In this document: in pieces, positions 24,350 through 63,892 of the stretch
How the letters are laid out: the number at the start of each line of letters is the position of its first letter
Numbering within the stretch: position 1 is the stretch's first letter
Sequence record: OQ990040
Strand: one strand, 5' to 3'
Length of the DNA stretch: 64,000 nucleotides
Origin: Escherichia phage SUT_E520
Program-made: the position numbers and the translations under genes
The notes under the pieces: model-generated
Seen by the model: the letters and a program-made list of their open reading frames with translations, nothing else
Told to the model about the DNA's origin: nothing
The model's database searches: none

Positions 24350-24425
24350 TGGTAGTTAGTAGTGGATTTGAACCACTGTAGTCGCTCCGTATGAAGGAGG
24401 TGCATAACCACTCTGCCAACTAACT
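24350..24425 (-). tRNA. tRNA with CAU anticodon (Met, fMet or Ile2)
   Basis: 7-bp acceptor AGTTAGT/ACTAACT, T-arm AGTGG-TTCAAAT-CCACT, anticodon loop TTCATAC, encoded CCA. Confidence 0.65.
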
Positions 24426-24592
24426 AGTTAATTCTTTATAGGTTAGATCTAGAAGATCTTTCTTACTGATAAGTCCTTCTCTATATTGGTCAATAAACAT
24501 ATCTATTCTAGAGTTCTCTGAGACTTCTATATCAGAAAGTTCAGCAAATATTTTTGCAAGTTTATCAATATCTTCCATACATAACCTTAATT

Positions 24593-24669
24593 TGGTACTC
24601 CGGGAGGGATTTAAACCCCCGATCTCTCGGTTATCAGCCGAGTGCTTTAGATCGCTAAGCTACCGAAGC
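24593..24669 (-). tRNA. tRNA-Ile (anticodon GAU)
   Basis: acceptor GCTTCGG/CCGGAGT with G-U pairs, anticodon arm CTCGG-CTGATAA-CCGAG, T-loop TTTAAAT, CCA. Confidence 0.7.
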
Positions 24670-24670
24670 A

Positions 24671-24898
24671 TTAACATTTTGCAGCAGAACGTTTGCCATT
24701 TCTAGGTGCACCTGGAAGTCGTGCACGTTCTGCCATTCTTCGCTTAATCTTTGAGATATTTTCTAGTGTTTGTTCTTCAGGCTTAATACCTGAAACACTA
24801 CACCACTGATTACCATCCCATGCGGTAATGATCATAACACCATTACTCATGATCTTTTCTGTAAAAGTAATCCTCATTATAGCAACTCGTCTAAGCAA
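24671..24898 (-). CDS. hypothetical protein (75 aa)
   Basis: ORF between tRNA genes. Confidence 0.3.
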   Translation of the reverse strand: MLRRVAIMRITFTEKIMSNGVMIITAWDGNQWCSVSGIKPEEQTLENISKIKRRMAERARLPGAPRNGKRSAAKC

Positions 24899-25170
24899 GA
24901 GGTATATTTAAGTTTACCATCTTTATCTACTTTGATTTCGACTTCCGCTCGTGGTACTTGACGAACTACACCATGAATCATCTTATAGCGAATGCCTTTA
25001 GCTGGTTCATGCTCTTTTGGAAATACTTGCTTAACCGTTACTACCTTAAAACCCTCACGCGGTGTTAACACTACTACTTGATCACCTTCTTTGATCTTCC
25101 AAGAGCCAGGAAATTCATAGGTATAGCGTTGACCACCAGTTTGGAACACAACAGAAAGATAACGTTTCAT
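24877..25170 (-). CDS. hypothetical protein (97 aa)
   Basis: ORF; T5-type promoter motif immediately upstream at about 25180-25215. Confidence 0.4.
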   Translation of the reverse strand: MKRYLSVVFQTGGQRYTYEFPGSWKIKEGDQVVVLTPREGFKVVTVKQVFPKEHEPAKGIRYKMIHGVVRQVPRAEVEIKVDKDGKLKYTSCLDELL

Positions 25171-25237
25171 TTGGCTTCCCTCTCATTAATTTATATAAAT
25201 ATTATAACAATAAATAAGAGAGAAAGCAAATGAATTT

Positions 25238-25405
25238 TTAATAAAGTTTAGTCACTTCATAAACTATACTACGAGATTCTTTATTACGTTCTATTAAATT
25301 AGAATATGCTTTTTCAGCTTCATTTTTAGTATTAAAGTCTATAACGTGGGAGGTATTCGCTCTATTTGATTGACTATACCAGATAACTACTAATAATTTA
25401 AACAT
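25238..25405 (-). CDS. hypothetical small protein (start trimmed to avoid tRNA overlap)
   Basis: ORF 25238-25432 overlaps the tRNA at 25420; internal Met used. Confidence 0.25.
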   Translation of the reverse strand: MFKLLVVIWYSQSNRANTSHVIDFNTKNEAEKAYSNLIERNKESRSIVYEVTKLY

Positions 25406-25419
25406 AATAGTCCTTAAGT

Positions 25420-25506
25420 TGGTGCTGGGCACAGGATTCGAACCTGTAACGGGATTACTCCTCCTGATTACAAATCAGGTGCATTCAACCATTCTGCCAA
25501 CCCAGC
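25420..25506 (-). tRNA. tRNA, anticodon UGU (Thr-type) with long variable arm, 87 nt; isotype uncertain
   Basis: acceptor GCTGGGT/GCCCAGC, anticodon arm CCTGA-TTTGTAA-TCAGG, T-arm ACAGG-TTCGAAT-CCTGT, CCA. Confidence 0.5.
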
Positions 25507-25671
25507 AGAACCCGTTATTTCAACGGGATTTCTTTTTCAATAACAGGAGACTTATCAGTCATAACCGCCATTGCCATTTGTTGTAGAAATTCAAAGGTGA
25601 AGGCTACACGTTCTTCACCAATCTCTACTTCTACACGTTTCTTTTGTTTATCGATCTTGACTTTTAGGTTA

Positions 25672-25923
25672 TCAGCCATTAGAGAGTACAGTACTGGTAG
25701 TTGGCAATACTACAGATGAAGCAACAGTGTTTAAATGCTTTCTCCAGTCTAGGTTAAATTGTTTTCGAAACTCTTCATAAGGTTCTTCTGGATAAAAGCT
25801 AAAACCTCCTTTCTCATCATTCAGGATAACAGAGCCGTCAGTTTGTTCGTATGCTCGGTATGTTTCTCCAATAACAATAACTCGTTTTTCGGTACTTTTA
25901 TTACGAAACTCAAAAACGTGCAT
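25672..25923 (-). CDS. hypothetical protein (83 aa)
   Basis: ORF between tRNA genes. Confidence 0.35.
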   Translation of the reverse strand: MHVFEFRNKSTEKRVIVIGETYRAYEQTDGSVILNDEKGGFSFYPEEPYEEFRKQFNLDWRKHLNTVASSVVLPTTSTVLSNG

Positions 25924-25939
25924 AATGTTTCCTTAAAGT

Positions 25940-26015
25940 TGGAGCGGCTAGAGGGAATCGAACCCTACTCAGCGAGGCTTGGAAGGCCTGCGGCACAACC
26001 CGTGTGCTTAACCGC
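25940..26015 (-). tRNA. tRNA-Gly (anticodon UCC)
   Basis: anticodon loop CTTCCAA; 3' end TAGCCGC-T-CCA resembles E. coli tRNA-Gly(UCC). Confidence 0.65.
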
Positions 26016-26023
26016 TTATTGTT

Positions 26024-26099
26024 TGGCTGGAGAAGGAGGAATCGAACCTACCATTAACGGAGTCAAAGGCCGTTGTGCTAACCGTTACACTACTCTCCA
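26024..26099 (-). tRNA. tRNA-Gln (anticodon UUG)
   Basis: U1-A72, G73, 3' end CCAGCCA as in E. coli tRNA-Gln; anticodon loop CTTTGAC. Confidence 0.7.
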
Positions 26100-26105
26100 A
26101 TTATT

Positions 26106-26181
26106 TGGCTGGGATGCCACGGATCGAACGTGGAACCTTCGGAGTCAGAGGCCGACGATCTGCCAATTGATCTACATCCCA
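26106..26181 (-). tRNA. tRNA-Gln (anticodon CUG)
   Basis: acceptor TGGGATG/CATCCCA, G73, T-arm CCACG-TTCGATC-CGTGG, anticodon loop CTCTGAC. Confidence 0.7.
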
Positions 26182-26193
26182 ATAATTTTTATT

Positions 26194-26388
26194 CTACGGA
26201 AAAATTGTTGTTGGCTCAGATTCTTCCAAACGTTTGCCTTCATGATCAACACGAATAACGCCGCATCCTTCGCAAATCACAACTGCACCATAACCTTCTT
26301 TGACCTCAGCTTCTGTAATCAAACCAGAAAGATCACCAGTATCTTTACCCCACATATCAATGGAGCATTGTTTGCAGAAATCAGCCAT
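26194..26388 (-). CDS. small Zn-ribbon protein (64 aa)
   Basis: CKQC ... CEGC motif pairs. Confidence 0.35.
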   Translation of the reverse strand: MADFCKQCSIDMWGKDTGDLSGLITEAEVKEGYGAVVICEGCGVIRVDHEGKRLEESEPTTIFP

Positions 26389-26413
26389 ATTTTATTTCCT
26401 ATTTAAGTTAATT

Positions 26414-26490
26414 TGGGGTGGCTAGTGGAATTCGAATCCACATAGGCCTGATTCACAATCAGGATCATTAACCAATTATGATATAGCCAC
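26414..26490 (-). tRNA. tRNA-His (anticodon GUG)
   Basis: perfect acceptor GTGGCTA/TAGCCAC, D-arm TCAT/ATGA, anticodon arm CCTGA-TTGTGAA-TCAGG, CCA. Confidence 0.8.
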
Positions 26491-26856
26491 AATTGAAAAC
26501 TCGCAGGGTTAGCGAAACCTTCCTCAATTAGCATGTTCTAGAATACTAATCAAGTTATCTCCTATTGCACGCAGCTCAAGACGAGTACGAATTTTCAATT
26601 GTGGCGGCTCTCAGAAACTCTTCTACTCTAGTCTTAGCAGCTTACTCCCGAACGCATGTCGGGGAAGTCTTACTAAGCGCATCAAATAGCACCGTTACAC
26701 TTTGAGCCATTGGTGTATCAAGAAGCAGAAGGACTTGAACCTTCACGAGATAGACCATTTATCTCAGCCGCTTTATGAGGTATGTTGCAGGGAGTGGATG
26801 TTCCCTATAAACCTTTTAGGCAGCCCCGTCTACCGATTCCGGCATACTTCAGGATT

Positions 26857-26951
26857 TGGAGGTAGGTAAGGGGATCGAACCCTTACACCGTATCACTACG
26901 ATCAACCGATTTCAAGTCGGAGTCCAGCGCCAGCCATTGGATTGACCTACC
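26857..26951 (-). tRNA. tRNA-Ser (anticodon UGA), type II, 95 nt
   Basis: acceptor GGTAGGT/ACCTACC, T-arm AAGGG-TTCGATC-CCCTT, anticodon loop CTTGAAA, long variable arm. Confidence 0.65.
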
Positions 26952-26963
26952 ATATAAATTGTT

Positions 26964-27054
26964 TGGCGGAAGAGGAGAGATTTGAACTCTCAAGCCGTTT
27001 TACCAGTCAGCCACTTTCCAAGCGGTTTTCGTCGCCAATTCGATTTGCTCTTCC
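26964..27054 (-). tRNA. tRNA-Ser (anticodon GGA), type II, 91 nt; D-region atypical
   Basis: perfect acceptor GGAAGAG/CTCTTCC, G73, T-arm GAGAG-TTCAAAT-CTCTC, anticodon loop TTGGAAA. Confidence 0.55.
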
Positions 27055-27166
27055 AATAATAAGATGATGCCTCTATCACACCAGGCAGTTACGCCTCGCT
27101 GGGATTCGAACCCATTAAAACAGCTCAACCGAGATAGTAGGTTTAATTTACTCTGACCATCAAATT

Positions 27167-27243
27167 TGGTGCGTGACAAGGGATTCGAACCCTCAAAACC
27201 CGACTTCTAAGGACGGTATGTATGCCAATTCCATCAATCACGC
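27167..27243 (-). tRNA. tRNA with UAG anticodon (Leu-type) but short variable arm; A73
   Basis: acceptor GCGTGAT/GTCACGC, T-arm GAGGG-TTCGAAT-CCCTT, anticodon loop CTTAGAA with one stem mismatch. Confidence 0.5.
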
Positions 27244-27248
27244 ATGTT

Positions 27249-34643: not shown

Positions 34644-35591
34644 TTACTTGTTACGCATATCCATGATCATTTGACCATCGTAGCCAGTACCTACCACAGT
34701 CTGAGGTACACCACCTTGATACTTCTGAGCACGGATCATTTCAACTTCCAGTTGTTTCCAACGAATCATTTCAGGAGTAATGGTACGTTGCAATGCGGCG
34801 TTAGCTTCAGCTTCTTTCTTAGCTGCGTACAGTTTAGCATCTGCGTCACGTTCATTAGCAATAGCTTGGTTGTTACGAGCTTCACGATCTGCTTCTGCTT
34901 GTTTAACTTTTTGCTGTGCTTCCTGTTCAACGCGAGCAAGTTCAGCTTTCGCAGCATTAACTTGCTCTTCACGAACTTTGGTATTCTGTACCTGTTCCAT
35001 GATTACTGGCGGCAAGGTAATATCCTGAAGGAATACCTGCTTAACTGTGTAACCATATGGGCGCGCATACTCTTCAACTTCCTGTTGAATTGCAGTTTGC
35101 AATTGAGCCTGAATTTTAGCATCAAATAAATCTTGTGCTTTAGGTACAGACTTACCAAACTCACGAATAGTAGACAGTAATTTTTCAGTTACATACTTGT
35201 CTAGTGCCTGATCCTGAGTACCTGCGTTAATACGGTTAATCGGTGCTTTAGAACCATCAAACTGCAACATAACAGTCAGGTCAACAGTGGATTTAAACTT
35301 ATCCTGGCTAGGAACCTGAAGTTTATCTAATTTTACAGCAATATCTTTTGTACTAAAAGTATCGAAAGATGCAAACGGGTTTACAAGATGGAAGCCCGGC
35401 AATACTGGATTAGGGTCTACTTTACCCAGGAATGTTTGGGTTTTAACCGTACCATCAGAAACAATAGTATATGAATTAAAAGCTAGGATTAAACCTGCTA
35501 AACCAACTACAGCACCAATACCCCAACGTTTAATAGTACGAATTACTTTCTGCTCAGAAGTCAGTTCTTTCATATTTTTAGTAGCAAACAT
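34644..35591 (-). CDS. SPFH/band-7 (HflK/C, stomatin, prohibitin-like) membrane protein
   Basis: N-terminal TM WGIGAVVGLAGLILAF, SPFH-like core, long Ala/Glu/Gln-rich coiled-coil. Confidence 0.55.
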   Translation of the reverse strand: MFATKNMKELTSEQKVIRTIKRWGIGAVVGLAGLILAFNSYTIVSDGTVKTQTFLGKVDPNPVLPGFHLVNPFASFDTFSTKDIAVKLDKLQVPSQDKFKSTVDLTVMLQFDGSKAPINRINAGTQDQALDKYVTEKLLSTIREFGKSVPKAQDLFDAKIQAQLQTAIQQEVEEYARPYGYTVKQVFLQDITLPPVIMEQVQNTKVREEQVNAAKAELARVEQEAQQKVKQAEADREARNNQAIANERDADAKLYAAKKEAEANAALQRTITPEMIRWKQLEVEMIRAQKYQGGVPQTVVGTGYDGQMIMDMRNK

Positions 35592-35625
35592 ATATTTCCT
35601 TTGTTTTAGTTACAGTTAATAAAAT

Positions 35626-35700
35626 TGGCCGAGGTGACAGGATTCGAACCTGCATAAAGGAATTTAGAAGACTCCTGCCTCTCCCTTAGACTACACCCCG
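35626..35700 (-). tRNA. tRNA-Arg (anticodon UCU)
   Basis: acceptor CGGGGTG/CACCTCG, anticodon arm GGAGT-CTTCTAA-ATTCC, T-arm GCAGG-TTCGAAT-CCTGT, CCA. Confidence 0.7.
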
Positions 35701-59676: not shown

Positions 59677-60087
59677 ATGACTACTCCAACTCAGTGGACT
59701 GATGAACTGTTCGAAAAAATGTCTTCCGAATACGTTGCTCGTATGGAGCAATTCCCAGAGGATGAACGTCCGGGTGTTAGCATGGAAATTGTTAGCGAAA
59801 TTGCTCAGGAAAATGGTGTAACTCCGAACGGTTTTCGTATGAAGTTGACCAAAGCAGGTGTATATATCAAGAAAGCTGCTGGCTCTGCTTCTAAATCTAG
59901 TGCATCTACTGGAGAAAAAGCTTCTGGTGGTTCTCGCACTTCCAAAGCCCAAGCTCATGCCGATCTTCGTTCAGCATTCTCTGATGCTGGCCTAGCACCA
60001 GATTTTCTGGATGATGCAATTATCGACAAACTGACCGGTAAAGCGGCTGCTCATCTGGCAGAAGCAATCCGAGCTATCACTAAGTAA
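59677..60087 (+). CDS. hypothetical protein with host-optimal codon usage (136 aa)
   Basis: AAGGAAA RBS; strong bias to ctg/cgt/ggt/gct codons. Confidence 0.5.
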   Translation: MTTPTQWTDELFEKMSSEYVARMEQFPEDERPGVSMEIVSEIAQENGVTPNGFRMKLTKAGVYIKKAAGSASKSSASTGEKASGGSRTSKAQAHADLRSAFSDAGLAPDFLDDAIIDKLTGKAAAHLAEAIRAITK

Positions 60088-61138: not shown

Positions 61139-62110
61139 ATGACCAATGTAAAAGACTTTATTAAACGTTGCCAAGAAGCATATTATCAAGGTATGTCTTT
61201 AATCTCTGATGAAGAGTATGATTGCCTGGTAAAACGCTTTCCGTTAGAAGAAGAGATCGGACCTAAGGGCGATATTCCACATCTGTATCGTATGTATTCT
61301 TTACAGAAAGTTTATTATAATCGTGGAGATAAACCTCCGTTTAACCCGTTAGGTCAAGTAGAAACTGATAAGTTAGATGGTTGTGCAATTTCTCTGTTAT
61401 ATATTAATGGCGAATTTGTTCAAGCACTAACTCGTGGTAATGGTATTCTAGGGAATGATGTCACAAGCAACGTAAGATTGCTGAATATCCCTAAAAAGAT
61501 TTCCCAAAAAGTACCTACTCAAATCACTGGTGAAGTTCTAATTACAAAAGAAGTAGAAAATAAACGTAACTTTGCCTCTGGTGCTATTAACCTCAAAGAT
61601 AGTGATGATTTTGTACAACGTATCGGAGAAGGTGGTTTAATCTTCGTTGCATATGGTATCCAGTGTTCTGCTGAATCTGTAGGTATTACAGAAGCATATT
61701 TAAAAGATATGCTTTGGCTGGAGAATGAGAACTTCTTAACAGTTGTTAATGTGCGTTCCTTCTTTAAATGGATTCCGACGGATGGTAAAGTTGTTCGTAT
61801 TAATGACAACAACAAATTCTTCCGTGAAGGCTGGACTAATAAATTCCCTCGTGGAGCATTCGCTATTAAAGAGGATGAAGAAGGCGAGGTTACAACTCTT
61901 ACTAAAGTTGAATGGCAGGTAGGGGCTTCTGGTAAAGTAACTCCAGTTGGTTATTTCGAACCGGTAATTATTGATGATGCTACAATTGTTAAAGCGACTC
62001 TTAATAACGTTGATTATATTAACTCTCTTGATCTAGAGATCGGTTGCCAGATTCGAGTGATTCGTGCTGGTGGTGTAATCCCGTGCATAGTAGAGCGAGT
62101 ATACGAGTAA
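61139..62110 (+). CDS. NAD-dependent DNA ligase, N-terminal part (adenylation and OB domains)
   Basis: KxDG adenylation motif in ETDKLDGCAISLLY; N-terminal Ia-like region. Confidence 0.65.
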   Translation: MTNVKDFIKRCQEAYYQGMSLISDEEYDCLVKRFPLEEEIGPKGDIPHLYRMYSLQKVYYNRGDKPPFNPLGQVETDKLDGCAISLLYINGEFVQALTRGNGILGNDVTSNVRLLNIPKKISQKVPTQITGEVLITKEVENKRNFASGAINLKDSDDFVQRIGEGGLIFVAYGIQCSAESVGITEAYLKDMLWLENENFLTVVNVRSFFKWIPTDGKVVRINDNNKFFREGWTNKFPRGAFAIKEDEEGEVTTLTKVEWQVGASGKVTPVGYFEPVIIDDATIVKATLNNVDYINSLDLEIGCQIRVIRAGGVIPCIVERVYE

Positions 62111-62253
62111 TACATAACCCTTTGCTACCCATCTACCATATCGGAATTATAAAGTGGTTATTGACATTTTCGCCGCTTAGGTATATACTAGTATCATTCA
62201 GTTGAGGGATAGAAAGTTATGGCGAGGGTAAGCAAAGTTAGTTAAAATTGTAG

Positions 62254-62282
62254 TTGCTAAATGCTTAAATACTTGCTATAAT
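62254..62282 (+). promoter_or_regulatory. T5-type promoter inside the ligase intergenic spacer (-35 TTGCTA, 17 bp, -10 TATAAT)
   Basis: TTGCTA at 62254-62259; TATAAT at 62277-62282. Confidence 0.5.
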
Positions 62283-62309
62283 ATTTATATAAATTGATAA
62301 GGAAGAAAT

Positions 62310-63083
62310 TTGATGAAAATCGAAATTCCAACACAATGTCCCTCTTGTGGTTCTAAGCTAGATCTTGTCAACGGACAATTATTTTGTCGGAATAAGTCCA
62401 ACTGTCCAGCGCAATCAAGTAAGTTAATTGAGAACTTCTGTACAAAAATGAAGTTAAAGGGTTTTGGTCCAAAAACTATTGAGAAGCTGGAGCTGACGAA
62501 GATTTCAGAACTATTTTACCTAACCGAAGAAGATTTGGTTAGAGCCGTGGGTAGCAAGGTTGCCGCTAAGTTAATTAGCGAATTAAATACTAAAGTTCGC
62601 GGAGACATTGACTTTGGTTCAGTTCTCGGTTCTTTAGGAATCCCTCTAATTGGAGAGGTTGCAGCAAAGAAATTATCCCAAAATTGCACTAGCTTCCACG
62701 ATGTGAAGGCTGACGGCAAGGCTGGAGAAAATTATAAAGCCTGGCTAAATTCCCCACAAGGCAAGGATGTTATCGAATTACCGTGGAAATTCTCAACTGG
62801 TGCTAAAGCTAAAACCGTCGTTACTGATGATTTAGTTGCCCAGCCAAATGGAATCGCGGTATGTATTACCGGATCTTTGCAAGACTTTGCAAATCGAACG
62901 GATGCAACAAACTATTTAGAAGGTCTAGGATATACGGTTAAGAAATCTGTTACCAAAGACGTCAAATACCTAATCTGTGAGGATGAATCGAAGCGTTCTT
63001 CCTCATCTTATAAGAAAGCCGAAACGAATGGGATAGAAATCCTGTCGATTAAAGAACTATTGGAGAAAAATAATAATGTCTAA
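62310..63083 (+). CDS. NAD-dependent DNA ligase, C-terminal part (Zn finger, HhH, BRCT)
   Basis: CPSCGSKLDLVNGQLFCRNKSNCPAQ Zn-finger, HhH-like GIPLIGEVAAKKL, BRCT-like IAVCITGSL. Confidence 0.6.
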   Translation: MMKIEIPTQCPSCGSKLDLVNGQLFCRNKSNCPAQSSKLIENFCTKMKLKGFGPKTIEKLELTKISELFYLTEEDLVRAVGSKVAAKLISELNTKVRGDIDFGSVLGSLGIPLIGEVAAKKLSQNCTSFHDVKADGKAGENYKAWLNSPQGKDVIELPWKFSTGAKAKTVVTDDLVAQPNGIAVCITGSLQDFANRTDATNYLEGLGYTVKKSVTKDVKYLICEDESKRSSSSYKKAETNGIEILSIKELLEKNNNV

Positions 63084-63843
63084 ACTGAACTGGAACGTAG
63101 AAGGTGTAACCGAGTCTCTGAAAGCAAAAGCCACTGCTCTGGGTGTTTCTGTAATCTCTCAAGAACAAGTAGCCGCTATCGCCGCTGAACTGGCTGCTGA
63201 AACTGGCAAAGATGTTACCGCTCGCTCTGTTGGCTCTAAACTGCGTAAAGAAGGTTTTGAAGTACAGAAAGCTAACGAAGTACAGAAATCCCCGTGGACT
63301 CCTGAGCAGGAAGCTGAACTGGTTGATTTCCTGAACGCTCATGCTGGTCAGTATACCTATGCTGAAATCGCTGCTGCTGTAGCTGGTGGTCAGTTCGGTG
63401 CTAAGCAGGTACAGGGTAAGATTCTGAGCCTGGAAATGACCGCTTCTGTTAAACCAACTGAAAAAGCTGCTGCTGTTCGTTCCTTTACTCCGGATGAAGA
63501 AACTGATTTTGTTAATCAGGTTGTTGCTGGTGCTACTATTGAAGCTATCGCTGCTCACTTCGGTCGCAATATTAAGCAGATCCGTGGTAAAGCTCTGAGT
63601 CTGCTTCGTGAAGGTCGTATCGCTGCTATGCCGGTACAGGAAACCTCAAGTGCTAAAACTCGTGAAGATCTGTTAGAAGGTCTGGATCTGGTTAACATGA
63701 CTGTTGCTGAGATCGCTGAGAAAACTGGTAAATCTGAGCGCGGTGTTAAATCTATGCTGTCTCGTCGTGGTCTGGTTGCTAAGGACTATGATGGTGCCGC
63801 TAAGCGTGCTAAACTGGATGCAAAAGCTGCGGCTGCTGAATAA
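63076..63843 (+). CDS. protein with four tandem HTH-like repeats, host-optimal codon usage
   Basis: four repeats of an xxEIAxxxGxxxxxVxxKxxxL-type motif; strong ctg/gct/cgt codon bias. Confidence 0.5.
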   Translation: MSKLNWNVEGVTESLKAKATALGVSVISQEQVAAIAAELAAETGKDVTARSVGSKLRKEGFEVQKANEVQKSPWTPEQEAELVDFLNAHAGQYTYAEIAAAVAGGQFGAKQVQGKILSLEMTASVKPTEKAAAVRSFTPDEETDFVNQVVAGATIEAIAAHFGRNIKQIRGKALSLLREGRIAAMPVQETSSAKTREDLLEGLDLVNMTVAEIAEKTGKSERGVKSMLSRRGLVAKDYDGAAKRAKLDAKAAAAE

Positions 63844-63860
63844 TCTGGTAAATTAAACCT

Positions 63861-63892
63861 AAGGGGAGGGGGCTATGCTCCTTCCCCTTTTT
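63861..63892 (+). terminator. rho-independent terminator
   Basis: hairpin aaggggagg...ccttcccctt followed by TTTTT. Confidence 0.55.

What the first reader, a model, noticed from the sequence alone, without database searches (positions are those of the whole stretch)
63076..63843. Four-repeat HTH-like protein with strongly host-optimised codons
The 255-aa product consists of four related 50-60-aa repeats each resembling a short HTH unit, and the gene uses highly expressed E. coli-type codons, unlike most of the window. This suggests a very abundant early DNA-binding or transcription-modulating protein.
Basis: partly seen in the sequence, partly recalled or inferred. Interest (0 to 1): 0.4.

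Follow-up and report, generated by a model that had tools for sequence, protein, structure and literature searches.

The report
Phage T5 D5 DNA-binding protein gene

Summary
Window 63076-63843 (+) encodes T5 gene D5 (T5.118). It is 254/255 identical to the reference protein, which RefSeq annotates as a DNA-binding protein required for DNA replication and late transcription.

Both observations hold:
- **Repeats.** The protein has four related helix-turn-helix units, at residues 4-64, 72-123, 135-184 and 192-236. All six inter-unit profile comparisons beat column shuffles. The AlphaFold2 model has pLDDT 94.
- **Codon bias.** The E. coli codon adaptation index (CAI) is 0.71, against a window median of 0.23. 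It exceeds even the T5 major head protein (0.63).

The interpretation (abundant early DNA-binding or transcription-modulating protein) matches published data. D5 is "very abundant" in T5 and BF23 lysates.

New detail found here:
- A fifth copy of the unit forms the N-terminus of the neighbouring, also codon-optimised, D3 protein.
- D5 lacks GcrA's sigma-binding zinc domain.

The most likely mechanism is multivalent coating of phage duplex DNA, comparable to phi29 p6. Verdict: the gene is already known and interest is low. The GcrA-like repeat architecture is a modest annotation gain.

The parts
62161..62189 (+). Sigma-70 promoter P-K28b (TTGACA, 17 nt spacer, TATACT), the first of two tandem promoters driving ligB-D5
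   Evidence: The promoter scan gives 11/12 matches. The sequence is identical to the T5 RefSeq region annotated 'promoter P-K 28b'.
62254..62282 (+). Sigma-70 promoter P-K28a (TTGCTA, 17 nt spacer, TATAAT, extended -10 TG)
   Evidence: The promoter scan gives 10/12 matches plus TG. It aligns to the T5 RefSeq 'promoter P-K 28a'.
62313..63083 (+). ligB, NAD-dependent DNA ligase subunit B. It is the upstream gene with no annotated or predicted promoter between it and D5, and its stop codon overlaps the D5 start by 8 nt. Its CAI is low.
   Evidence: Annotation is. The start codon was placed by alignment to T5. CAI is 0.235, against 0.695 for D5 in the T5 reference.
63062..63065 (+). GGAG Shine-Dalgarno element, 10 nt upstream of the D5 ATG
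   Evidence: Read directly from the sequence.
63076..63843 (+). D5 coding sequence (255 aa plus stop), T5.118 orthologue
   Evidence: (PHROG_323 'transcriptional regulator, D5-like', E 1.4e-71).
63085..63267 (+). HTH unit 1 (aa 4-64; helices 11-22, 29-43, 49-58). Family-invariant W6, R50, K55, L56, R57.
63289..63444 (+). HTH unit 2 (aa 72-123; helices 76-88, 95-101, 109-118). Invariant Q113, G114, K115, L117.
63478..63627 (+). HTH unit 3 (aa 135-184; helices 139-150, 155-162, 166-178). Invariant E156, G171, K172. This is the unit most like the GcrA DNA-binding domain.
   Evidence: (R3 vs GcrA probability 86%).
63649..63783 (+). HTH unit 4 (aa 192-236; helices 210-217, 221-231), the divergent unit. 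It carries the Pfam Sigma70_r4_2 match. Invariant G223, L228; nearly invariant R222, R230, R231, G232.
   Evidence: (PF08281, 28.8 bits, residues 204-230).
63793..63837 (+). C-terminal Ala/Lys-rich helix (aa 240-254), outside the repeats
   Evidence: AlphaFold2 secondary structure.
63861..63889 (+). 13-bp G+C-rich hairpin followed by a T run, an intrinsic-terminator-like site 18 nt after the D5 stop. It also encloses the Shine-Dalgarno element and the AUG (63875) of the downstream D6 helicase gene.
   Evidence: Terminator scan. The fold of 63840-63910 gives -25.6 kcal/mol. The D6 start is placed from the annotation offset.
59677..60087 (+). D3 gene (136 aa). Its N-terminal ~70 aa are a paralogous single copy of the D5 unit. 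It has the second-highest CAI in the window.

Best explanation
The ORF is bacteriophage T5 gene D5. It encodes a 255-aa early protein made of four tandem three-helix HTH units of the GcrA-DBD/Myb-like kind, plus a short C-terminal helix.

**Shown here**
- The identity of the gene.
- The four-unit architecture.
- The position behind the tandem promoters P-K28b and P-K28a.
- The terminator-like hairpin directly downstream.
- The strongest host-type codon bias among the T5 genes examined (the whole window plus 39 annotated reference genes).

**Taken from the literature or annotation**
- It binds DNA.
- It is needed for DNA replication, late transcription and early shutoff.
- It is very abundant in lysates.
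- It binds a retron msdDNA stem-loop and triggers retron-Kva2.

**Inferred**
- Each unit puts its third helix, which carries the family-invariant R/K/G residues, into a major groove. One monomer would then contact several successive grooves. This would give high-avidity, low-specificity and probably cooperative coating of duplex phage DNA.
- D5 is therefore needed in stoichiometric, capsid-like amounts (order 1e5 per cell), which explains the codon optimisation.
- The coated replicating DNA supports replication, occludes early promoters and permits the early-to-late switch. This is an architectural, 'histone-like' role comparable to phi29 p6.
For: **Identity**
- Megablast gives 100% identity to records annotated as D5.
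- Synteny is D2-D3-ligA-ligB-D5-D6.
- The protein is 254/255 identical to T5 D5.
- PHROG_323 matches at E 1.4e-71.

**Architecture**
- Searches support four related units.
- The AlphaFold2 model has pLDDT 94.3.

**Fold**
- hhalign of the unit profile against the GcrA DBD gives probability 91%, with 0 of 60 shuffles reaching the score.
- In a panel of nine other sequences (eight HTH-class domains plus the D3 N-terminus), only the D3 N-terminus exceeded 13% (44.5%). The eight unrelated HTH classes gave at most 12.5%.

**DNA-contact logic**
- In the GcrA-DNA crystal structure, helices alpha2 and alpha3 bind the major groove through R33, N34, I37, G38, K39, H41 and R42 (PMC5887438).
- In the hhalign and hand alignments, these positions coincide with D5's invariant or nearly invariant R50/K55/R57, G114/K115, R170/G171/K172 and R222/R230.

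**Expression**
- Promoters and terminator.
- CAI is 0.71, against a window median of 0.23.
- In the T5 reference the ranking is D5 0.695 > major head protein 0.630 > D3 0.560 > D11 SSB 0.554, and all others are at or below 0.40. The overlapping upstream gene ligB is 0.235.
- The three next-highest genes (major head protein, D3, D11 SSB) encode a capsid or DNA-binding protein.

**Abundance**
- PMC10644984 and PMC8624392.

**Nucleic-acid binding and toxicity**
- PMC13405049 reports that D5 remodels retron-Kva2 in mass photometry, is predicted by AlphaFold3 to bind the msdDNA stem-loop, and is toxic when expressed alone.

**Family**
- The family is confined to T5-like phages with genomes of about 105-128 kb, in 902 records.
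Against: - No DNA-binding, site-size, cooperativity or copy-number measurement was made here. The primary 1979 papers are not in the held library, so 'cooperative, non-specific dsDNA binding' rests on my own recollection of them and on inference.
- pTM is only 0.57, so the relative arrangement of the four units, and hence how many grooves one monomer can reach, is not defined.
- The protein has zero net charge (34 K+R against 34 D+E), which is unusual for a non-specific DNA coat.
- The GcrA DBD is sequence- and methylation-selective, so the fold does not by itself argue for non-specific binding.
- The mechanism of the T5 early-to-late switch is described as unknown, and another protein, gpT5.026, has been implicated (PMC7472727).
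Confidence: 0.75

Rival explanations
1. D5 is a conventional, sequence-specific activator of T5 late promoters. It would work like GcrA: its HTH units read a cis element near late promoters and the protein contacts sigma-70/RNA polymerase. Only modest amounts would be needed.
For: - Many records annotate it as 'late gene transcription factor' or 'D5-like transcriptional regulator'.
- The unit is GcrA-DBD-like, and GcrA is a sigma-70-bound activator that reads specific DNA.
- D5 is required for late transcription according to the RefSeq note.
Against: - D5 has no counterpart of GcrA's C-terminal CCCH zinc-finger sigma-interacting domain. It contains no cysteine at all.
- Its codon adaptation exceeds that of the major capsid protein, and it forms a prominent band in lysates. 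That points to stoichiometric rather than catalytic amounts.
- It was not among the proteins found with RNA polymerase from T5-infected cells in PMC7472727.
- It also affects replication and early shutoff.
Confidence: 0.15
2. D5 is a sigma-factor-like protein or a sigma region-4 mimic that redirects or blocks host RNA polymerase (a sigma appropriator or anti-sigma).
For: Pfam Sigma70_r4_2 (PF08281) matches residues 204-230 at 28.8 bits, above the 25.7-bit cutoff. There are also weaker Sigma70_r4 and r3 matches. 13 of 36 unit sequences match PF08281.
Against: - The match covers only the HTH core (profile positions 23-49 of 54) of one unit.
- There is no region 2 or 1.2.
- hhalign of the unit profile against E. 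coli sigma-70 region 4 gives probability 2.5%, against 86% for GcrA.
Confidence: 0.04
3. The host-like codon usage reflects recent capture of an E. coli gene rather than selection for high expression.
For: The gene's G+C content is 47%, against 39% for the window.
Against: - Megablast finds no match in 5,426 complete E. coli genomes.
- Homologues are confined to T5-like phages, including those of Vibrio, Proteus and Aeromonas.
- GC3 is only 32%. The higher G+C comes from the Ala/Gly-rich composition at codon positions 1-2.
- The bias is towards the T-ending codons typical of highly expressed E. coli genes, not average E. coli usage.
Confidence: 0.01
4. The 'repeats' are an artefact of Ala-rich, helix-forming low-complexity sequence, and the protein is a single non-repetitive domain.
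For: The protein is 17% Ala. The DNA-level matches inside the gene are GCT-run matches only. The R2-R4 profile probability is only 7%.
Against: - Column shuffles preserve composition, yet they essentially never reach the observed scores.
- The AlphaFold2 model shows discrete three-helix units.
- Conserved positions recur in register in all four units: the W/F-T-x-E start, the 'IA' in helix 2 and the G-K / R-x-L motif in helix 3.
- The D3 C-terminal half, used as a negative control, scores within the shuffles.
Confidence: 0.01

Closest known systems
Bacteriophage T5 D5 protein (T5.118, YP_006946.1; PHROG_323 'transcriptional regulator, D5-like')
   Same: The protein is 254/255 identical, has the same length and lies in the same gene order ligA-ligB-D5-D6. 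It is an orthologue, and effectively the same protein.
   Different: There is one substitution (S25 in the window, D25 in T5). The window is closer at the DNA level to Escherichia phages SUT_E1520 and SUT_E420 (100% identity).
[quoted passage not shown]
   Same: - Profile-profile probability is 91%.
- The two share the W-T-x-E start, the 'IA' in helix 2 and the G-K in helix 3, at positions that contact DNA in GcrA.
   Different: - GcrA has one DBD plus a linker and a CCCH zinc-finger sigma-70-interacting domain. D5 has four DBD-like units and no Cys.
- Pfam's GcrA model does not report D5.
- GcrA prefers m6A-methylated GANTC sites, and nothing is known of such selectivity in D5.
Phage phi29 protein p6 (viral histone-like dsDNA-binding protein)
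   Same: It is a functional analogue. p6 is a dsDNA-binding phage protein that complexes the whole phage genome (described as analogous to cellular histones), is essential for replication and modulates the early-late transcription switch (PMC4974454). This parallels D5's annotated phenotypes and abundance.
   Different: There is no sequence or fold relationship. I recall p6 as a small protein of roughly 100 aa (not checked here). It acts in monomer-dimer and higher association states and nucleates at the genome ends. D5 is a 255-aa chain with four covalently linked HTH units.
Myb/SANT and homeodomain-like tandem HTH arrays (c-Myb R2R3, SNAPC4, Timeless DBD, Tc3/paired bipartite domains)
   Different: All Pfam Myb and homeodomain matches are below the curated cutoffs. 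The unit profile is much closer to GcrA than to Myb (86% against 12.5%). D5 also lacks the regularly spaced Trp triad of Myb repeats.

Membership tests
T5 D5 protein family (PHROG_323) | Full-length sequence homology to T5 D5 | tested here: met
   254/255 identity to YP_006946.1. PHROG_323 matches at E 1.4e-71 over residues 1-253.
T5 D5 protein family (PHROG_323) | Conserved position in the early replication block of a T5-like genome (after ligB, before the D6 helicase) | tested here: met
   The annotated neighbourhoods of T5_ev212 and T5 RefSeq match the window's ORF order.
T5 D5 protein family (PHROG_323) | Binds double-stranded DNA; required for replication, late transcription and early shutoff | not testable with these tools
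   Only the RefSeq note and the title of McCorquodale et al. 1979 (seen in a reference list) were available. The paper itself is not held.
T5 D5 protein family (PHROG_323) | High abundance in infected cells | tested here: met
   Indirectly, CAI is 0.71, the highest among the T5 genes examined. Directly from the literature, it is very abundant in T5 and BF23 lysates.
GcrA family (Pfam PF07750) | N-terminal GcrA-type three-helix DNA-binding domain | tested here: met
   [not shown]
GcrA family (Pfam PF07750) | Match to the Pfam GcrA model at the gathering score | tested here: not met
   PF07750 is not listed for D5 at E <= 1, nor among the 25 (of 46) families shown for the 36 unit sequences.
GcrA family (Pfam PF07750) | C-terminal CCCH zinc-finger sigma-70-interacting domain | tested here: not met
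   D5 contains no cysteine. The GcrA sigma-interacting domain needs C118, C133, C143 and H146 (PMC5887438).
GcrA family (Pfam PF07750) | Preference for m6A-methylated GANTC sites | not testable with these tools
   This needs binding assays.
Sigma-70 family | Region 4 HTH | tested here: inconclusive
   PF08281 matches at 28.8 bits, above the 25.7 cutoff, but only over 27 residues of unit 4. hhalign against E. coli sigma-70 region 4 gives probability 2.5% for the unit profile.
Sigma-70 family | Region 2 (core binding and -10 recognition) | tested here: not met
   There is no Sigma70_r2 match. The whole chain is accounted for by four HTH units and one helix.
Myb/SANT - homeodomain-like HTH | Three-helix bundle with helix 3 as the recognition helix | tested here: met
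   [not shown]
Myb/SANT - homeodomain-like HTH | Match to Pfam Myb_DNA-binding or Homeodomain-like models at the gathering score | tested here: not met
   Myb_DNA-binding scores 17.6 bits against a 24.4 cutoff, and HTH_23 scores 22.0 against 24.6.

The most novel reading that the evidence does not exclude
T5 carries a small paralogous set of GcrA-type HTH modules in its most heavily expressed or earliest regulators. D5 has four, D3 has one, and according to the literature the A1 N-terminus has one.

On this reading D5 would be a phage 'histone' built from four such readers. It would distinguish the state of phage DNA (replicated, nicked or modified against unreplicated, much as the GcrA DBD discriminates methylated from unmethylated sites) and thereby gate late transcription. 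The same fold would be what different retrons sense: Ec67 through A1 and Kva2 through D5.
Probability: 0.15. Interest if true: 0.5.

Novelty: already known. Interest (0 to 1): 0.2.

Why it matters
The gene and its main properties (early, abundant, DNA-binding, needed for replication and late transcription) have been known since the 1970s, so the finding itself adds nothing new.

Three details may be useful:
- **The repeat architecture.** D5 can now be described precisely as four GcrA-DBD-like HTH units. The neighbouring D3 protein carries a fifth copy. I found no paper in the held library that says so, including the 2026 retron-Kva2 preprint, which used an AlphaFold3 model of D5.
- **The late-switch and retron questions.** The architecture gives a concrete handle (per-unit helix-3 mutants) on the still-unexplained T5 early-to-late switch. 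It also bears on why retrons recognise D5 and A1.
- **Translational tuning.** D5 and ligB overlap and have no annotated or predicted promoter between them, yet their CAI values are 0.70 and 0.24. D5 almost avoids the codons read by the phage's own tRNAs. This is a clean natural example of tuning at the level of translation.

Tried and rejected
- **Sequence search of the PDB with the family profile.** No solved D5 structure exists. The best hit was a designed engrailed variant at E 6e-4 on unit 1. With the unit profile, GcrA was not retrieved by hmmsearch at E <= 10; the best hit was the 55-aa chain 2x48_A (molecule name CAG38821) at E 8e-5. The GcrA link therefore rests on structure and on profile-profile comparison only.
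- **Pfam.** Only generic HTH-clan matches appeared. The single match above cutoff (Sigma70_r4_2) was judged to reflect generic HTH similarity.
- **PF26822.1.** It is precomputed for some D5 and D3 homologues but could not be identified, because it did not appear in the local Pfam scans.
- **DNA-level repeats in the gene.** Only GCT-run matches were found.
- **Rfam on 62000-64000.** Nothing was found.
- **Host origin.** There is no megablast match in E. coli genomes.
- **The primary literature.** The 1979 D5 paper (PMC353123) and the Davison 2015 review (PMC4743489) are not held.
- **DRT4 trigger 'ORF55' of T5 (PMC12783706).** I checked it as a possible D5 link. The text does not identify it with D5, and I did not pursue it.
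- **Long multi-HTH proteins in the representative search (P0238, P0254, P0255, P0245).** These are generic Myb/HTH_7/HTH_23 arrays, not D5 relatives.
- **The 169-aa antisense ORF 63049-63558.** I treated it as a shadow of the strongly biased sense frame. It is not annotated in the two records examined.
Full report
**What is at the coordinates.** Window 63076-63843 (+) is an ATG-to-TAA ORF of 255 codons. A GGAG lies 10 nt upstream of the ATG, and the ATG overlaps the stop codon of the preceding gene by 8 nt. Megablast against 50,697 phage records finds 512 records. The best are 100% identical (Escherichia phages SUT_E1520 and SUT_E420) and are annotated 'putative transcription factor D5'. T5_ev212 (99.9%) is annotated 'D5 protein/DNA-binding protein'.

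The neighbourhood is the T5 early replication block: helicase, D2, D3, ligA, ligB, D5, DnaB-like helicase D6, primase, DNA polymerase. The protein is 254/255 identical to T5 RefSeq D5 (T5.118, YP_006946.1). PHROGs places it in phrog_323, 'transcriptional regulator, D5-like', at E 1.4e-71. The window is therefore a Tequintavirus genome and the finding is gene D5.

**Observation 1: four repeats.** I aligned 118 full-length homologues. I cut the alignment into four segments and compared the segment profiles with hhalign.
- R2-R3 gives probability 96% (E 6e-9).
- R1-R2 gives 60%, R3-R4 56%, R1-R3 44%, R1-R4 31% and R2-R4 7%.
- Ala-rich helices can give spurious matches, so I shuffled the columns of one partner 100 times per pair. 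The observed score was matched in 1 of 100 shuffles for R1-R2 and in 0 of 100 for the other five pairs, with z from 4.1 to 13.8.

An HMM of the unit finds exactly four copies, at residues 4-64, 72-123, 135-184 and 192-236. That HMM was built from the family, so it gives boundaries rather than proof.

AlphaFold2 with a 74-sequence alignment gives mean pLDDT 94.3. It shows three-helix units at 11-58, 76-118 and 139-178, then a fourth unit with two clear helices (210-231) and a C-terminal helix at 240-254. pTM is 0.57, so the units are confident but their mutual arrangement is not.

The family-invariant residues fall mainly in the third helix of each unit: R50, K55, L56, R57; Q113, G114, K115, L117; G171, K172; G223, L228. 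Among 184 relatives of at least 230 aa, 167 have four units and three have five. There is no DNA-level repeat in the gene, so the duplication is ancient.

**Observation 2: codon usage.** I used Sharp & Li's E. coli relative-adaptiveness values.
- D5 has CAI 0.706. It is the highest of 110 non-overlapping ORFs in the window, whose median is 0.235. The next is 0.545, for D3.
- Re-encoding the D5 protein 5,000 times with the window's own codon frequencies gives 0.312 +/- 0.025, maximum 0.425, so z is 15.6.
- CTG makes up 89% of Leu codons, against 15% elsewhere. GCT is 84% against 44%, and GGT is 89% against 48%. AGA, AGG, ATA, CTA and GGA are absent.
- In the T5 reference, D5 (0.695) outranks the major head protein pb8 (0.630), D3 (0.560) and the D11 SSB (0.554). 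Every other gene tested is at or below 0.40. The overlapping upstream gene ligB is 0.235.
- The bias is not a sign of host origin. There is no match in 5,426 complete E. coli genomes. GC3 is only 32%. Homologues occur only in T5-like phages, in 902 records that include Vibrio, Proteus and Aeromonas phages.

**Expression signals.** Two near-consensus sigma-70 promoters lie upstream of ligB, at 62161-62189 and 62254-62282. They are base-for-base the T5 promoters annotated P-K28b and P-K28a. No promoter is predicted or annotated between ligB and D5, so I infer that the two genes are cotranscribed.

Eighteen nucleotides after the D5 stop there is a 13-bp G+C-rich hairpin followed by a T run (63861-63889). 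The annotated start of the next gene, D6 (AUG 63875), and its purine-rich Shine-Dalgarno element lie inside this hairpin. The hairpin should therefore both attenuate transcription and mask D6 translation. That last point is inference.

**Published evidence on abundance and function.**
- In phiR2-01, the D5 homologue is among the proteins with the highest spectral counts in a virion preparation (PMC8624392).
- A July 2026 preprint identifies T5 D5 as the trigger of the type IX retron-Kva2. D5 is toxic alone, is predicted by AlphaFold3 to bind the msdDNA stem-loop through an HTH, and remodels the retron complex in mass photometry. Escaper phages carried mutations in D5, D3 and D2 (PMC13405049).
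- The classic paper (McCorquodale et al. [quoted passage not shown] From memory, and not verified here, the purified 29-kDa protein was reported in 1979 to bind duplex DNA cooperatively.
- The switch from early to late T5 transcription is still described as mechanistically unknown (PMC7472727).

**What the unit is.** Pfam gives only HTH-clan matches. Sigma70_r4_2 matches unit 4 at 28.8 bits, just above its cutoff. HTH_23, HTH_28 and EutK_C match unit 3, Myb matches unit 2, and HTH_33 and Tc3 match unit 1, all below their cutoffs. No D5 structure is in the PDB. Foldseek with the whole model finds nothing significant.

I then built a GcrA-DBD alignment.
- The D5 unit profile aligns to it with probability 91% (E 1e-6). 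Unit 3 alone gives 86%. None of 60 column shuffles reaches either score.
- Against single sequences, GcrA gives 86%. The eight other HTH classes tested (Cro, engrailed, c-Myb R2 and R3, sigma-70 region 4, gamma-delta resolvase, NarL, Tc3) give at most 12.5%.
- In the GcrA-DNA crystal structure, helices alpha2 and alpha3 sit in the major groove. R33, N34, I37, G38, H41 and R42 touch bases, and K39 among others touches phosphates (PMC5887438).
- In the alignments, these positions coincide with D5's invariant or nearly invariant R50/K55/R57, G114/K115, R170/G171/K172 and R222/R230.

D5 is nevertheless not a GcrA family member. Pfam PF07750 does not report it. It also lacks the CCCH zinc-finger sigma-interacting domain, because it has no cysteine.

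**A related gene next door.** The unit HMMs also pick up D3 (59677-60087) within the window, at E 0.002-0.005. With a D3 family profile, the N-terminal 75 residues align to the D5 unit profile at probability 92.6%, to R1 at 90% and to R4 at 89%, with 0 of 40 shuffles reaching the score. The D3 C-terminal half, as a negative control, scores below 1% and within the shuffles.

**Most likely mechanism.**
- *Shown:* D5 is a four-unit HTH protein. It lies behind two strong promoters, is followed by a terminator-like hairpin and is encoded with the strongest translational codon bias among the T5 genes examined.
- *From the literature:* it binds DNA, is very abundant, and is needed for replication, late transcription and early shutoff.
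- *Inferred:* each unit docks helix 3 in a major groove. Four linked units would give high avidity with low specificity, so the protein coats duplex phage DNA in stoichiometric amounts. This makes it an architectural, histone-like protein, functionally comparable to phi29 p6, which complexes the whole phage genome and is needed for both replication and the early-late switch (PMC4974454).
- The codon ranking fits a need for copy numbers of the order of the capsid protein, since D5 groups with the major head protein, D3 and the SSB.

Points against are the zero net charge, the undefined inter-unit geometry (pTM 0.57) and the sequence- and methylation-selectivity of the GcrA DBD itself. The rivals are scored low for the reasons given in their entries. 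They are a GcrA-like specific activator, a sigma region-4 mimic, a host-derived gene and spurious repeats.

**Verdict.** The object is a gene known for about fifty years, so novelty is 'already known' and interest is low. The added value is descriptive. It consists of the GcrA-like identity of the repeat, its fifth copy in D3, and the sharp translational tuning of D5 relative to the overlapping upstream gene ligB.

Noticed in passing
[not shown]
   Followed up: yes
window 63861-63889 (+), with the D6 start at 63875: The terminator-like 13-bp hairpin after D5 encloses the Shine-Dalgarno element and the AUG of the downstream DnaB-like helicase gene D6. The fold of 63840-63910 gives -25.6 kcal/mol, z -2.9. 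It could both attenuate read-through and mask D6 translation.
   Followed up: partly
window 24350-35700 (-), compared with 63076-63843: There are 21 phage tRNA genes. Several read codons that are common in the rest of the window but nearly absent from D5: Leu-TAG/CTA, Leu-TAA/TTA, Arg-TCT/AGA, Thr-TGT/ACA, Gln-TTG/CAA, Pro-TGG/CCA and Ala-TGC/GCA. D5 therefore appears to be coded for translation by abundant host tRNAs, independently of the phage tRNA set.
   Followed up: partly
window 62313-63083 vs 63076-63843: ligB and D5 overlap by 8 nt and have no predicted or annotated promoter between them, yet their CAI values are 0.235 and 0.695 in the T5 reference. This is a sharp within-operon contrast in codon adaptation.
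   Followed up: partly
window 63049-63558 (-): A 169-aa antisense ORF lies inside D5. It is Ser/Phe-rich, is not annotated in the two records examined, and is most likely a shadow of the GCT/GGT-biased sense frame.
   Followed up: no
proteins P0121, P0194, P0206 (relatives): A few D5-family proteins of 284-309 aa carry five units instead of four, so the unit copy number varies within the family.
   Followed up: partly
homologue tables: Pfam accession PF26822.1 is precomputed on several D5 homologues and several D3 homologues. This independently hints at a shared domain. The accession did not appear in the local Pfam scans, so its name could not be read.
   Followed up: partly
window 61139-62110 and 62313-63083 (+): The NAD-dependent DNA ligase is split into two genes, ligA and ligB. 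The tandem promoters P-K28b and P-K28a sit in the 200-nt gap between them, as in T5 RefSeq.
   Followed up: no
literature, not in window coordinates: The T5 A1 N-terminal domain is reported to be GcrA-DBD-like and to determine sensitivity to retron Ec67. D5, with four GcrA-like units, triggers retron-Kva2. Two different retrons therefore respond to T5 proteins that share this fold.
   Followed up: no
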